Below, in pieces: positions 1 through 7,900 of a DNA stretch of 64,000 nucleotides. A program made the translations under genes and the position numbers. The stretch's first letter is position 1, and each line of letters starts with the position of its first letter. The DNA lies in contig CM074520.1 of assembly GCA_037379345.1 (NCBI GenBank), positions 868,001-932,000 of the forward strand. The letters are read 5' to 3'. A model generated the notes under the pieces. It had not been told where the DNA came from. It did no database searches and worked only from the letters and a program-made list of their open reading frames with translations. This DNA comes from Perna viridis. Taxonomy: Eukaryota.

Positions 1-972
1 GTATACTGGTCTCACCCTTCAGCGTTGTTGTTGTAGTTTGGTTGTATACTGGTCTCACCCTTCAGTGTTGTTATAGTAGTTTGGTTGTATACTGGTCTCA
101 CCCTTCAGGGTTGTTATAGTAGTTTGGTTGTATACTGGTCTCATCCTTCAGTGTTGTTGTAGTTTGGTTGTATACTGGTCTCACCCTTCAGCGTTGTTGT
201 TAAAGTTTGGTAATATACTGGTCTCACCCTTTAGCGTTGTTATAGTAGTTTGGTTGTATACTGGTCTCACCCTTCAGTGTTGTTATAGTAGTTTGGTTGT
301 ATACTGGTCTCACCCTTCAGTGTTGTTGTAGTTTGGTTGTATACTGGTCTCACCCTTCAGTATTGTTATAGTAGTTTGGTTGTATACTGGTCTCACCCTT
401 CAGTGTTGTTATAGTAGTTTGGTTGTATACTGGTCTCACCCTTCAGTATTGTTGTTGTAGTTTGGTTGTATACTGGTCTTACCCTTCAGCATTGTTGTTG
501 TAGTTTGGTTGTATACTGGTCTCACCCTTCAGCGTTGTTATAGTAGTTTGGTTGTATACTGGTCTCACCCTTCAATGTTATAGTAGTTTGGTTGTATACT
601 GGTCTCATCCTTCACTGTTGTTGTTGTGGTTTGGTTGTATACTGGTCTCACCCTTCAGCGTTGTTGTTGTAGTTTGGTTGTATACTGGTCTCACCCTTCA
701 GTGTTGTTATAGTAGTTAAGTTGTATACTGGTCTCACCCTTCAGCGTTGTTGTTGTAGTTTGGTTGTATACTGGTCTCACCCTTCAGTGTTGTTATAGTA
801 GTTTGGTTGTATACTGGTCTCACCCTTCAGAATTGTTGTTGTAGTTTGGTTGTATACTAGTCTCACCCTTCAGCGTTGTTATAGTAGTTTGGTTGAATAC
901 TGGTCTCACCCTTCAGCATTGTTGTGGTTTGATTGTATACTGGTCTCACCCTTCAGCGTTGTTGTTGTAGTT
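1..972. repeat. ~43-bp intronic minisatellite (GTATACTGGTCTCACCCTTCAGCGTTGTTGTTGTAGTTTGGTT), about 22 copies, truncated by window start
   Basis: Direct tandem repetition with 40-43 bp variants. It lies upstream of the first visible CWH43 exon, so it is presumably intronic. Confidence 0.97.
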
Positions 973-2224: not shown

Positions 2225-2289
2225 AAATCTGATTCTATCCAAGTATCCTATAGTCAAATCAACACATCATTTGTTGCCTTCACCTCATG
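2225..2289 (+). CDS. CWH43: CWH43 internal exon (NLILSKYPIVKSTHHLLPSPH)
   Basis: TTGTAG acceptor, GTAAGT donor, conserved SKYPIVKS.HHLLPSP motif. Confidence 0.93.
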
Positions 2290-2448: not shown

Positions 2449-2590
2449 GAGAACTTGCCCCTGCTATAACAGCTACAGTAAACATGTCTGGTGGTTTGGT
2501 AGATTTTGTTGTCACACATATGGGCAATGATAGAGACAAACTTGACAGAAAACTTCAGGCTCAGTTCCTAGCAAAAGAACTAGCTCAGTG
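2449..2590 (+). CDS. CWH43: CWH43 internal exon ([11 protein letters not shown]...[15 protein letters not shown])
   Basis: TTTGTAG acceptor, GTAAGT donor, GELAPAI and DFVVTH.GN motifs. Confidence 0.95.
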
Positions 2591-3623
2591 GTAAGTTGAA
2601 GGCTCAGTTCCTGGCAAAACAACTAGCTCAGTGGTAAGTTAAAGGCTCAGTTCCTGGCAAAACAACTAGCTCGGTAGGTTAAAGGCTCAGTTCCTGGCAA
2701 AACAACTAGCTCAGTGGTAAGTTGAAGACTCAGTTCCTGGCAAAACAACTAGCTCAGTGGTAAGTTGAAGACTCAGTTCCTGGCAAAACAACTAGCTCAG
2801 TGGAAAGTTAAAGGCTCAGTTCCTGGCAAAACAACTAGCTCAGTGGAAAGTTAAAGGCTCAGTTCCTGGCAAAACAACTAGCTCGGTAGGTTAAAGGCTC
2901 AGTTCCTGGCAAAAGAAAGAGCTCAGTGGAAAGTTAAAGGCTCAGTTCCTGGCAAAACAACTAGCTCAGTGGTAAGTTAAAGGCTCAGTACCTGGCAAAA
3001 CAACTAGCTCGGTAGGTTAAAGGCTCAGTTCCTGTCAAAACAACTAGCTCAGTGGTAAGTTAAAGGCTCAGTTCCTGGCAAAACAACTAGCTCAGTGGAA
3101 ATTTAAAGACTCAGTACCTGGCAAAACAACTAGCTCAGTGGTAGGTTAAGAAAGGCTCAGTTTCTGGCAAAATAACTAGCTCAGTAGATTAAAGGCTCAG
3201 TTCCTGTCAAAACAACTAGCTCAGTGGAAAGTTAAAGGCTCAGTACCTGGCAAAACAACTAGCTCAGTGGTATGTTAAGAAAGGCTCAGTTTCTGGCAAA
3301 ATAACTAGCTCAGTAGATTAAAGGCTCAGTTCCTGTCAAAACAACTAGCTCAGTGGAAAGTTAAAGGCTTAGTACCTGGCAAAACAACTAGCTCAGTGGA
3401 AAGTTGAAGGCTCAGTACCTGTCAAACCAACTAGCTCAGTGGAAAGTTAAAGGCTCAGTTCCTGGCAAAACAACTAGCTCAGTGGTAAGTTAAAGGCTCA
3501 GTTCCTGGCAAGAGAACTAGCTCAGTGGTAGGTTAAGAAAGGCTCAGTTTCTGGCAAAAGAATGAGCTCAGTGGTTACTTTATGGCTCAGTTCCTGGCAA
3601 ATGTACTAGCTCAGTAATAAGTG
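2558..3623 (+). repeat. 43-bp minisatellite, 25 units, made of the CWH43 exon 3' end plus its 5' splice site
   Basis: Unit GGCTCAGTTCCTGGCAAAACAACTAGCTCAGTG|GTAAGTTAAA. The first unit is the coding exon end and the real donor. Confidence 0.97.
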
Positions 3624-3755
3624 ATACTTTATGTATATATTACATAATTATTCTGAATAAAAATCATAATATGTTCTCTTTTTAAATCCATATACAGTGT
3701 ATTTAAATTTTATACTCAAGCACTACTAAACATAAACTGTTTTCATTGTACACAG

Positions 3756-3905
3756 TGAGAACCCTGTTGTATTTATGGGTTATGTGACATCCTCTCCAAA
3801 GAGTCGAGATTACATGGAACTCACCAAGAATGGAAATGTTAAAGATATTGATGATACAGACTATGATAGGTGGTGTGAATACCTGATGTACAGGGGCCTT
3901 ATCAG
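3756..3905 (+). CDS. CWH43: CWH43 internal exon ([12 protein letters not shown]...[13 protein letters not shown])
   Basis: CACAG acceptor, GTAGG donor, DRWCEY motif. Confidence 0.95.
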
Positions 3906-4123
3906 GTAGGCTGCAAATGGTTATGGGTAGGGAAATACAAGGGGGTCCTCAATAGGGATGTTTGATGGCAGAGGGGTAGAAACAATGATATGTTGTAATG
4001 TCAAGAAAAAATTAGGAGGATATAAATGGATGTATGACTGGGAGGAGAAGAATAGGACAGGAATTAGGACACATTATTTTAAGTTCTGTGGAAGTACAGT
4101 AATTCTACTGGAGAACAGAAATA

Positions 4124-4206
4124 GTATGTGTGTGGGATATAGGACAGTTGTATGTGTGTGGGATATAGGACAGTTGTATGTGTGTGGGATATAGGACAGT
4201 TGTATG
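4124..4206. repeat. 26-bp tandem repeat x3
   Basis: GTATGTGTGTGGGATATAGGACAGTT repeated. Confidence 0.9.
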
Positions 4207-4458
4207 GATTGTTGTTTATTATGACTCTAAAATAAAATGTAGAGAGTGTGCTCTTGTATTTTATTATTCACTGACCTACAAAGTAAGACCATTCTTATAT
4301 AACCTCATTGTGAACAATTAAAACATTTTTCAATTTACTTCTTGTTAACTTTAATTCAAGATTTTCAAGGTAAAGAGTTCAAGGACATGAGGTCAATTGA
4401 ATGCTATAGCCATTGTTATTATATCTTTCAATATTATTTATCCCTCTGTACATTAAAG

Positions 4459-4614
4459 GTTAGGTTATGCAAGAATATCCCATGGAGGACTAAGTGATAC
4501 AGAAGTCCAGTTAGGAAAGTTTGAAATTCCCCTGGATCCAAAGAATTACAAAGATAACAATAAGATGAGAACAGATCCCTCTTCAATTGATGAAAGTGTT
4601 CATTTTAGTAAAAG
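4459..4614 (+). CDS. CWH43: CWH43 internal exon (LGYARISHGGLSDTEVQLGKF...HFSK)
   Basis: AAG acceptor, GTAAAG donor, GYARISH..LSD.E.Q motif. Confidence 0.94.
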
Positions 4615-4824
4615 GTAAAGAACAATAAGATGAATAAAATACATATAATTGTTTGAATTTATTTTTTTTATTTTTCTGTGTAAACAGCGTAAAAAAAACA
4701 AGAACTTGCAATTATAATGTTTCAAAGTTCAAATATTCTAATGCATATGTAGGCATGGGGGTTTGAACACTTACAAAAGTTTATTGATAAAAAGGATTAA
4801 CTAAATGTTTGTATATTTTTTCAG

Positions 4825-4906
4825 ATTTGGAAAATACAGATCTGGTCATGCAAATGTTAAAAATCATCGATTTCACATGGATACACCTAAATACTTTATA
4901 CCTTGA
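4825..4906 (+). CDS. CWH43: CWH43 terminal coding exon (FGKYRSGH...HRFHMDTPKYFIP*)
   Basis: TTTTTTCAG acceptor, H.FHM.TPKYF C-terminal motif, TGA at 4904-4906. Confidence 0.94.
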
Positions 4907-7900
4907 GAGATTACAAAGATATGAAATAGGCTTGGCCTTTTGACCTCTACTCTGCTGTCTGCAACCTTTGTGACCTCTACTTTGCTTGCTTGTTGCTAGG
5001 TATGGAGGAGAGATTCTCATCAGATCTTCCTGTTTGTTTTAGTTTGTGTTTGTTCATGTCATATTTTCCCCCTCATGCCTGCTCTCATTAGTTAAAGTGA
5101 GATAAATGGTAGAAACATTGTAATACATGCACATGCACTGTTTACAGTAGAATATGTCTATTCAGACTTGCTTTATAAACAGAAATATTATGTGGGATGA
5201 GGCAAGTTGTTGGAAAATCAAAGTTAAAAATAGTGGCTGTATTAATGTTCCAGAGAATAGATAGTTTTTTATGTTAGTTTTACCCCAGCAACATAGTTTT
5301 AGAATGAGGTAATAGGAAATAACCTGTCTGATCATCTGTTTTTTTTTATACTGCCCTATGCATTTTGCTGAAACTTTACAGGAAGATTAGGCATCATATT
5401 TAGAATGATTATTGTCTGAGACTTACCCGGAGATAATCCAACTCATAGATTTATCATGTTAAAAGTTCAATTAAGTTTGGGAGGGGTGCTGCATGTTTTT
5501 TTTTAATGTCTAGTTCATTCAAAAATCACTGCACATAAATGTGATAAAGCATCATAGGCAGATCCAGGTGGTGTTGCTGAATGACTTTGATCCTCCTCAT
5601 GAAATTGAAATTAATTTAAATGCAAAAATATTTTTTTCATGTTAAAATAATGAAAAACTTCAAAAACAATACAGTTTGATAAACAATTAATACAAATGTT
5701 TCTTAGTTTTTATATTACATACACAATTGAATATAATACATATTTTTTTCTATTTTTTTCTTGAGAAAAAAATTGCCCTCCTTATAAATCTCTGTTCTCT
5801 TTCTTATTCACTGATGTTGTTAATTAATTGTTTAGATATTTTAATTGATTGTTTAATTACAATTATCTCCCACAGAAATTTTGTTATTGTTTTAAAACTT
5901 TAGTAAGTTTGTACATTGCTTAGCTGAGTTGGTGCAGTGCTCGCCTTTAGCCACTAGCCTGAAGCCCAGGGCTAGTAAAAATTGTTTCGGGCTAGTGAAA
6001 TGATGTGTACATTTCTATTTTGGGCTAGTTGAGTCCTATACAGTCCTTTATTATTCTGCTTAGCCATTGAGAATTTTGAAGGAAAGGACTGTTGGTGTTC
6101 ATGATATATGTGATAAAGTTTATGGTTGTTCTACAAAGTATGTATTTATACAACAGTGATATGTTGAACAAGAATGAAATGGCATATTTTTTATTCACAA
6201 AACCCACATGATTCTTACATTTTATTTGTCATGACTCCAACCTGAACAGTATTATATTGTGACTTACATTGATGAGAGGTGGAACGTGTCAGAAATACAA
6301 TGTTAACTGAACAGTTTAATGGTTTTGTTCTACAAGTTTATCAAGAATAATTGCAAAAATTTGTATATAAATTTTTGATAAATCTTAACACAAATTGTAC
6401 GTAGATTGTTGAGGTTATTAATTTGTCTTGGTGTTGTTGTATTACTTTTTCATTTGATTTTCAAGAATTGTCATCATTTTGTTATTGTGGATCTTATTAT
6501 TTTTGTTGTCGGGTTCCATCGGAACTTACTTTAAGGTGTGTTTACACTTGTTAAGACCTTTTTGTGATATCTGAATATATACACTGTTTTGTATTTAGGT
6601 TATATGCTGCTGCATTTGTTATGTTTCAACATGTCCATTCTTGTTTACACAGAGAAAGCCCTTAGAAAAATTTGAAATCTGCATGATAACCACAGAAAAA
6701 AGTTTGGGGTATTACCTTAAGTATTAGTCCATATCTACACCACATAATACTATGGTAACCACTGGTTGATTTACTTTATGATCTGAGTGAAGCATTTTAT
6801 TCTGCTTTGGCTGGTTGTACCTTTTTTGCTGCTTTTTTGTACATGTACTCAATATTAGAGTTTATTTAAGATTGATAAGCTTACACTTAGTTTGGTTGTT
6901 TTTATTTCTTTAATATAGTTATGTCTTCTGTAATTCTGTAATGGCACTTTTCTTATCATTTTGAATAGCTGTAATGATTTAAACAAAAGATTGAGATCTT
7001 TTATTTTTACATTGAATGGGAGTTTTCAATATTAGATTTATATTGGTTTTTTTTGTTTCCAAAATATCAATAGATTGTACTTCAATTATATATGCATGCA
7101 ATACTTTCTGAATTATTGAGCGACTCTTTTAGTGTTATCTTTTTAATAGACGTTTAACTAACAAAATCTTACTAAAAAGAAAGGTCCTGGTTAAATAATC
7201 ATCATTTTTTTAAACAGTTATTGGCATTGTTTTAGATGACAAAATTATGTGTACATATTTGTTGATGTAGATGATAGAAATTCTAACTTTTCAGTTATGA
7301 TTGCACCTATTGCTTTTTTTCTCAAAATTTAAACAATTTGCTAAAATCAGTGGTATTTAGGAATTTCAATGTTATACTGAATTCTGAATGTACAGATCTG
7401 AGACAACTGTTTTTATATAAGCAGACAAAGGATTTAGTTTTTGTTTAGTTTTGGTTGTAATGGTGTTTCTTCTGAAGAGGTTCTTATACTAATCATATTG
7501 CTTTTTTGTATTTAGAAATGAAGTAAACATGTTAACTTTGAAGAACAAAAATATGTTTCTGCTTTAATAAAAACTTAACTTTAGAAAATACAGGACAAAA
7601 TAGATAATTAGTTTGTATTATGGAATTTTAATATTATACAAAATGTACATGTATTTAAGGAATAGAATGAATGCATGTGAAATGTGTTGGAACTTCTAGA
7701 TGTTCTTTTCAGATCATCAGTGGTATTGTCTTGTTTGAAGTCAGAGCTAAAGTTTTCCTAAAAATTAAATCAAATATAAACATGTTATTTGATCTTACAC
7801 ATTGTAATTTTTAAGTAGACTTTTAATGAAGTGACCATGTGTTTATTTGTATCTCTGGAAGCCAGTCATCTAGCCCTAGTTTGAAAAGTGTTCTAAACAT

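What the first reader, a model, noticed from the sequence alone, without database searches (positions are those of the whole stretch)
2558..3623. CWH43 intron built from 24 extra copies of its own exon end and splice donor, behind an immediate stop codon
Seen: the 43-bp unit is the last 33 nt of the coding exon plus GTAAGTTAAA, and the array fills most of the 1165-nt intron. By manual count, 6 intronic units keep G|GTAAGT exactly, about 6 carry GTAGGT or GTATGT, and 8 have the GT destroyed (GGAAAG/GGAAAT). Units 14-16 are re-duplicated as 17-19. Reading past the first donor gives CAG TGG TAA, so use of any downstream donor truncates the protein before the DRWCEY and SDTE motifs. Inference: this is a natural decoy-donor array that may bind U1, tune productive versus NMD-targeted CWH43 mRNA by copy number, or be losing donors under selection.
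Basis: partly seen in the sequence, partly recalled or inferred. Interest (0 to 1): 0.7.

Follow-up and report, generated by a model that had tools for sequence, protein, structure and literature searches.

The report
Splice-donor minisatellite in bivalve CWH43
The last 33 bases of one exon of a shellfish CWH43 gene, with its splice signal, are copied 24 more times into the next intron; this repeat type is already known from lancelets and human genes, is common in this genome, and is likely harmless because assembled transcripts from two studies join the first, genuine signal to the next exon.

Summary
It is a donor-type 'mirage' minisatellite, known from amphioxus (Adh3, globins, PGBD5) and human F7, CBS and 6-16. 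The scan noted this kind before on other DNA (34 findings, at least 6 genomes).

It is common here. The same gene has it at 3 of 13 introns, and 8 of 166 myosin exon ends carry it (1.9 expected by chance). The immediate stop is not special: all 6 phase-2 introns of the gene have one, 4 of them without an array. Donor loss is not selected detectably: the 8 GA units share one allele, and 14 pooled arrays show 9 GT alleles against 10.0 expected.

Contigs of 2 of 4 runs, from two studies, join donor 2591 to acceptor 3756. In the other two, probably one data set, the contig starts exactly where array units first differ from the exon. That hints at leak to an array donor or an exon allele, and is unresolved. 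Verdict: ordinary, a likely neutral repeat expansion; a decoy or rheostat role is unsupported.

The parts
2225..2289 (+). CWH43/PGAP2IP coding exon (exon 10 of the 14-exon model)
   Evidence: tblastn with P0001 and P0004; open 672-aa model
2449..2590 (+). Coding exon whose last 33 nt form the exon part of the repeat unit
   Evidence: Pfam PF23226, E 1.6e-13; its end is joined to 3756 in X15 and X16 contigs
2558..2600 (+). Unit 0: exon end plus the genuine donor GTG|GTAAGT (GT at 2591-2592); in-frame TAA at 2592-2594 on read-through
2601..3626 (+). 24 intronic copies (40-46 bp). 12 keep a donor-like GT site (2634, 2674, 2717, 2760, 2886, 2972, 3012, 3055, 3141, 3270, 3485, 3528); 8 carry the GA allele; the last two units are decayed
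3108..3365 (+). Higher-order re-duplication: units 13-15 (3108-3236) repeated as 16-18 (3237-3365), 2 differences in 129 bp
3627..3755 (+). Unique AT-rich intron 3' part with the acceptor CAG at 3753-3755
   Evidence: sequence; contigs enter the exon at 3755/3756
3756..3905 (+). Next coding exon (contains DRWCEY)
   Evidence: PF23226, E 4.6e-17; spliced in 4 of 4 runs
4459..4614 (+). Coding exon (contains SDTE)
   Evidence: GT..AG joints in 4 of 4 runs
4825..4906 (+). Last coding exon up to the stop; the 3' UTR follows

Best explanation
This is a tandem array of the exon's last 33 bases plus its splice donor, likely made by a local duplication and later repeat turnover, and likely tolerated as neutral because assembled transcripts in two studies use the first donor. 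Steps: (1) a 43-bp duplication across the exon-intron border (shown as structure; the mechanism, slippage or unequal exchange, is inferred). (2) Expansion and homogenisation of inner units: shared alleles, a 3-unit re-duplication and decayed edge units (shown). (3) The spliceosome takes the most upstream donor, as in human F7 (junction shown in X15 and X16; scanning mechanism inferred from PMC1557585). (4) Any slip to an array donor includes the TAA at 2592 and would be removed by NMD (PTC shown; NMD inferred from the exon-junction rule, my own knowledge), so leak would cost little and the copies would drift.
For: Known class with this anatomy (PMC3087553 passages; PMC1557585 abstract, introduction and passages; PMC3902484 passages). 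In X15 and X16 (studies P6, P7) the 30 loose letters shown before 3755 carry both unit-0 diagnostics. Recurrence: 3 of 13 introns of this gene; 8 of 166 myosin exon-like ends against a null mean of 1.9, P 0.0005; exons of ABHD18 and GDT1 nearby. No excess GT loss: 9 alleles against 10.0, non-consensus frequency 0.075 against 0.077, 120 of 148 inner units keep GT. 3 of 14 arrays would give in-frame, stop-free read-through, so a PTC is not a requirement. The unit matched only this locus in the genome, 18 of 18 hits.
Against: In X10 and X11 the contig starts 13 letters before the junction, where 7 of the 12 donor-bearing array units first differ from the exon end. A second spliced path or an exon allele may therefore exist at a level that survives assembly. 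Alleles at donor positions +1 to +6 are slightly above the null (37 against 30.0, P 0.09; P 0.04 in the first, badly registered version). Contigs drop rare isoforms, and NMD would hide PTC transcripts, so 'first donor only' is not quantified. 3 of 13 introns is above the myosin rate (P 0.02; 0.11 leaving out the found array).
Confidence: 0.8

Rival explanations
1. Leaky array: one or more intronic donors (most likely unit 1 at 2634) are used at a measurable rate and give PTC transcripts, as in human 6-16 and CBS, as unselected splicing noise. This is compatible with the neutral origin.
For: The contig start in X10 and X11 at 13 shared letters equals the value simulated for use of the unit 1 or unit 9 donor; unspliced intron gives 1, unit 2 gives 1 and unit 22 gives 15. 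PMC1557585 (introduction) reports use of two pseudo-sites besides the real donor in 6-16 and in CBS.
Against: An exon allele differing at 2577 gives the same 13. The branch is absent from X15 and X16. The second path itself was not seen.
Confidence: 0.3
2. Exon allele: array-to-exon gene conversion or a plain SNP put another base at 2577 in some animals (C would give Glu to Gln), which explains the contig start without use of any downstream donor.
For: The simulation gives the same 13-letter start. Most intronic units have C at this column, so a donor template for conversion lies next to the exon.
Against: Simple SNP bubbles are usually removed by the assembler (my own knowledge), and the three other differences in that contig caused no break. 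No DNA of that animal was laid.
Confidence: 0.15
3. Selected decoy or rheostat: the array binds U1 or diverts transcripts to NMD, and its copy number tunes CWH43 level.
For: 12 of 24 intronic units keep a donor-like site, 6 identical to the real one; all downstream use yields a PTC ahead of two further junctions. The gene has three such arrays.
Against: The stop is generic for phase-2 donors (6 of 6). The same arrays occur in unrelated genes at about 5% of sampled exon ends. Donor positions are neither conserved nor lost beyond the null. The gene's 35-bp array is decayed to 64% matches, which fits turnover.
Confidence: 0.06
4. Assembly artefact.
For: No independent DNA run was shown to span the array. 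Array words are 25% of the distinct 31-mers of the searched stretch, so word shares up to 0.76 say nothing about it.
Against: No N in the window. Units carry many shared and private variants, three length classes and a higher-order duplication. The same kind of array occurs on six contigs of this genome and in print for other animals.
Confidence: 0.03

Closest known systems
Amphioxus 'mirage' minisatellites: Adh3 (10-72 bp units), globins BflGb6 and BflGb9, troponin C, PGBD5 (PMC3087553 passages; PMC3902484 passages)
   Same: Tandem copies of an exon-intron boundary; many but not all units keep the splice signal; edge units excluded from homogenisation; normal mRNA still made; several genes per genome.
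   Different: Here in a bivalve. Length polymorphism between haplotypes and somatic instability, reported for amphioxus, were not tested here.
Human F7 intron 7 37-bp VNTR (Borensztajn et al. 2006, PMC1557585; abstract, synopsis, introduction and passages read)
   Same: First unit spans the exon end; identical pseudo-donors follow; the most upstream donor is used.
   Different: F7 has 5-9 units with 4 exon bases each; this array has 25 units with 33 exon bases each, and half of the intronic donors are decayed. Scanning was shown by mutagenesis for F7 and is only inferred here.
Human 6-16 intron 2 (25 pseudo-sites) and CBS intron 13 (15-20 repeats), with lamin B2 and PDGF (as cited in the PMC1557585 introduction; primary papers not read)
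   Same: Similar copy numbers. In 6-16 and CBS two pseudo-sites are used besides the real donor, the pattern hinted at by X10/X11.
   Different: Use of an array donor is not demonstrated here.

Membership tests
Donor-type mirage (exon-intron boundary minisatellite) | Head-to-tail units of minisatellite size | tested here: met
   Period 43, 24.9 copies, 86% matches; 25 units
Donor-type mirage (exon-intron boundary minisatellite) | First unit spans the genuine exon-intron boundary | tested here: met
   Exon confirmed by Pfam and by an open model; its end is spliced to 3756
Donor-type mirage (exon-intron boundary minisatellite) | Many but not all copies keep the splice signal | tested here: met
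   12 of 24 keep GTAAGT, GTAGGT or GTATGT; 8 of 24 have GA
Donor-type mirage (exon-intron boundary minisatellite) | Normal mRNA is made from the most upstream donor | tested here: met
   X15 and X16 contigs carry unit-0 letters at the junction; X10 and X11 show only 13 letters, too few to tell. Shown for the assembled form, not for rare isoforms
Donor-type mirage (exon-intron boundary minisatellite) | Concerted turnover of inner units, edge units apart | tested here: met
   Shared alleles, 129-bp re-duplication; units 23 and 24 are 81% and 84% identical to the consensus, among the lowest; unit 0 differs at 2 exon sites
Donor-type mirage (exon-intron boundary minisatellite) | Copy number varies between haplotypes | not testable with these tools
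   One assembly only; no long reads of other animals across the array were seen
Regulated unproductive splicing (alternative 5' site coupled to NMD) | Alternative donor introduces a PTC well upstream of the last junction | tested here: met
   TAA at 2592-2594 with two further introns downstream
Regulated unproductive splicing (alternative 5' site coupled to NMD) | Alternative donor is really used at an appreciable, regulated level | tested here: inconclusive
   Only the indirect contig start in X10/X11; an exon allele explains it equally
Regulated unproductive splicing (alternative 5' site coupled to NMD) | Alternative donors under selective constraint | tested here: not met
   GT columns change at the background rate over 14 arrays, P 0.70; conservation in orthologous genes not tested
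Dispersed satellite or transposon-derived repeat | Copies of the unit elsewhere in the genome | tested here: not met
   18 of 18 hits lie at this locus; that search skips very common words, so the blank is not absolute

The most novel reading that the evidence does not exclude
In this bivalve, exon-end plus donor arrays arise at about one in twenty exon ends, more on the donor side than the acceptor side (8 against 2 of 166) and more near chromosome ends (6 of 40 against 2 of 126, cut chosen after the fact). At CWH43 intron 11 the array donors are used in some animals, so copy number and donor state act as a heritable dial between productive and NMD-bound mRNA.
Probability: 0.07. Interest if true: 0.6.

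Novelty: new member of a known kind. Interest (0 to 1): 0.15.

Why it matters
As found it matters little: one more example of a described repeat class that mostly leaves splicing intact. Two side results have modest value. The rate in this genome is high (8 of 166 sampled exon ends), and the pooled test shows that spare donors decay at background rate, which supports neutral tolerance. My searches for this class in bivalves or molluscs listed no such survey in the held library, judged from titles and abstract starts; most subscription papers are not held. If array donors proved to be used in proportion to copy number, the locus would be a natural allelic series for testing first-come donor choice and NMD buffering in an invertebrate.

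Tried and rejected
Run search: no RNA holder listed on record; the four runs laid are RNA by guess or of unknown kind, but show spliced GT..AG joints. Word shares of DNA runs (0.45-0.86) were considered as evidence for the array in other animals and dropped, because non-array words alone make up 75% and the best holder may be the source sample. Lack of contig cover over 3630-3729 is not used as evidence. No view of contigs on the upstream exon and the first array units was obtained, so the second path in X10/X11 is unseen.

The annotation-free donor scan was weak alone: 22 donor-bearing arrays against 13.7 by shuffle in 504 kb near the contig end, 2 against 2.4 in 200 kb mid-contig, with no first-versus-last unit polarity (22 against 21). 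Pfam named 4 of 24 candidate frames from it (ABHD18, GDT1 and two CWH43 exons). The donor score used recalled, approximate base frequencies.

Dropped rows: one GDT1-region array that starts at the GT itself, one myosin array that starts inside the intron, and one tblastn interval inside an array. The first pooled decay test had register errors and was redone. An off-by-one exon start was fixed. The 43-bp array at window 1-972 was checked as a second mirage and rejected: it lies inside intron 9 and touches no exon. A paper search on CWH43 with splicing or NMD listed no CWH43 paper among the 12 shown.

Full report
Observation. TRF reports one array at 2557-3622, period 43, 24.9 copies, 86% matches. 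It splits into 25 units of 40, 43 or 46 bp. Unit 0 is the last 33 nt of the exon 2449-2590 plus the first 10 nt of the intron 2591-3755 (1165 nt). Among the 24 intronic units, 6 keep GTG|GTAAGT, 5 have GTAGGT, 1 GTATGT, 8 have GA for GT, 2 have TCA|GTAGAT and the last 2 are decayed. Units 13-15 recur as 16-18 with 2 differences in 129 bp. All 8 GA units carry the same T>A change, so they likely descend from one mutation spread by repeat turnover.

Gene. The window is G000:C10:868001-932000, 0.87 Mb from the start of a 42-Mb contig in a 723-Mb genome. Both flanking exons match Pfam PF23226, the PGAP2IP/CWH43 C-terminal domain. With 40 kb of upstream DNA, a 14-exon model gives an open frame of 672 aa (N-terminus incomplete), 57% identical to P0001 and to P0004, a Dreissena PGAP2-interacting protein. 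I take the organism to be a bivalve from that hit; earlier scan notes call it a mussel, unchecked here.

The immediate stop. Read-through gives CAG TGG TAA, ahead of DRWCEY and SDTE. This follows from intron phase: in a phase-2 intron starting GTAA or GTAG the next codon is a stop. All 6 of 6 phase-2 introns of this gene show it and 0 of 7 others do; 4 of the 6 have no array. It is not a designed feature of the array.

Transcripts. Contigs of four runs from four study codes were laid on 3630-5100. All 4 show the two downstream GT..AG joints. In X15 and X16 the contig continues upstream of the acceptor with 30 shown letters that carry both unit-0 diagnostics, so donor 2591 is the assembled form. 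In X10 and X11, which look like one data set, the contig starts only 13 letters into the exon end. A k=31 graph simulation gives 13 for use of the unit 1 or unit 9 donor, and 13 for an exon allele at 2577; it gives 1 for unspliced intron, 1 for unit 2 and 15 for unit 22. Seven of the 12 donor-bearing units share exactly 13 letters with the exon end. So a second path likely exists in that sample, but its letters were not seen, and leak cannot be told from an allele. Contigs drop rare forms and give no levels.

How common. The same gene has two more exon-end plus donor arrays upstream of the window: 35 bp x 5.6 after the first modelled exon (64% matches) and 18 bp x 29 after a 75-nt exon that fits the open model but has no Pfam hit. 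That makes 3 of 13 introns. For an independent sample I took myosin-head genes (PF00063), fetched 395 kb in 25 blocks and mapped 167 exon-like intervals, one of which lay inside an array and was dropped. Nine arrays touched a 3' end; 8 contain the exon end and a donor, 1 starts inside the intron. The count within one period of the interval end was 8 against a null mean of 1.9 (P 0.0005). On the acceptor side it was 2 against 2.0. Six of the 8 lie in two genes within 1.5 Mb of a contig start; near-end blocks give 6 of 40 against 2 of 126 (Fisher P 0.003, 2-Mb cut chosen after seeing the data, few genes). Array density on C10 was 185 per Mb near the end and 75 per Mb mid-contig. Exons of ABHD18 and GDT1 within 160 kb of the window also carry such arrays. 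The unit of the finding matched only its own locus, 18 of 18 hits, so it arose in place.

Selection on spare donors. For 14 arrays (3 CWH43, ABHD18, GDT1, 9 myosin) I counted distinct alleles per column in inner units. GT columns: 9 alleles against 10.0 for random two-column windows (P 0.70); non-consensus frequency 0.075 against 0.077; 120 of 148 inner units keep GT. Positions +1 to +6: 37 against 30.0 (P 0.09). In the finding alone the GT has 1 allele, at 8 of 23 inner units, a frequency reached by 9% of windows. Three of 14 arrays would read through in frame with no stop, about what chance gives (my estimate: one third in frame, times the chance of no stop). Neither purging nor keeping of donors is detected; the sample is small.

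Known kind. PMC3087553 (passages on 'mirage') describes tandem duplications of exon-intron boundaries in amphioxus globins and Adh3 that do not disturb regular splicing, keep splice signals in many but not all units, vary in length and spare the edge units from homogenisation. PMC3902484 (passages) adds PGBD5 and troponin C. PMC1557585 (abstract, synopsis, introduction, passages) shows for human F7 that identical pseudo-donors are functional but unused because the most upstream site wins. It lists 6-16 and CBS (two pseudo-sites also used), lamin B2 and PDGF (real donor only); those primary papers I did not read. No supplements were opened. Searches with bivalve or mollusc terms listed no survey of this class in molluscs, judged from titles and abstract starts. 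The scan itself holds 34 findings with these words in at least 6 genomes; none of the 8 notes shown for this genome concerns such an array.

Verdict. A real, well-described example of a donor-type mirage minisatellite: most likely a neutral local expansion read through its first donor (0.8), possibly with some leak (0.3, not exclusive), and unlikely to be a selected decoy or rheostat (0.06). Interest 0.15.

Noticed in passing
L006:6572-6773 and L005:1946-2467 (G000:C10:854572-854773 and 859946-860467): Two more exon-end plus donor arrays in the same CWH43 gene: 35 bp x 5.6 (decayed, 64% matches) and 18 bp x 29 (in frame and stop-free on read-through).
   Followed up: yes
window 1-972 (starts 49 bases before the window): A second 43-bp minisatellite, 24 copies, inside CWH43 intron 9; it touches no exon and is unrelated to the finding's unit.
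   Followed up: partly
L060 (G000:C9:684500-694499) and L067-L068 (G000:C13:1417500-1437499): Two myosin genes near contig starts each have three exon-end plus donor arrays; two in the C13 gene have periods 48 and 60, in frame with no stop, so use of a second donor would lengthen the protein.
   Followed up: partly
L052 (G000:C11 about 1903420-1903545) and L061 (G000:C15 about 4034525-4034695): Acceptor-side arrays (TTTCAG plus following bases) at myosin exons; fewer than donor-side arrays in the sample.
   Followed up: partly
L087:1853-1987 (+) and L097:7829-7993 (-): ABHD18 and GDT1 exons near the window end in donor arrays of 78 bp x 14 and 43 bp x 11.
   Followed up: partly
L005 about 2738-2743 (G000:C10 about 860738-860743): A possible 6-nt in-frame micro-exon (AG, six bases, GTATGT) in CWH43 intron 6; the model is open with or without it.
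   Followed up: no
window 4921, 4952, 4961: 3' UTR differences in transcript contigs: 4921 in 4 of 4 runs, 4952 and 4961 in X10 and X11 only; likely alleles.
   Followed up: no
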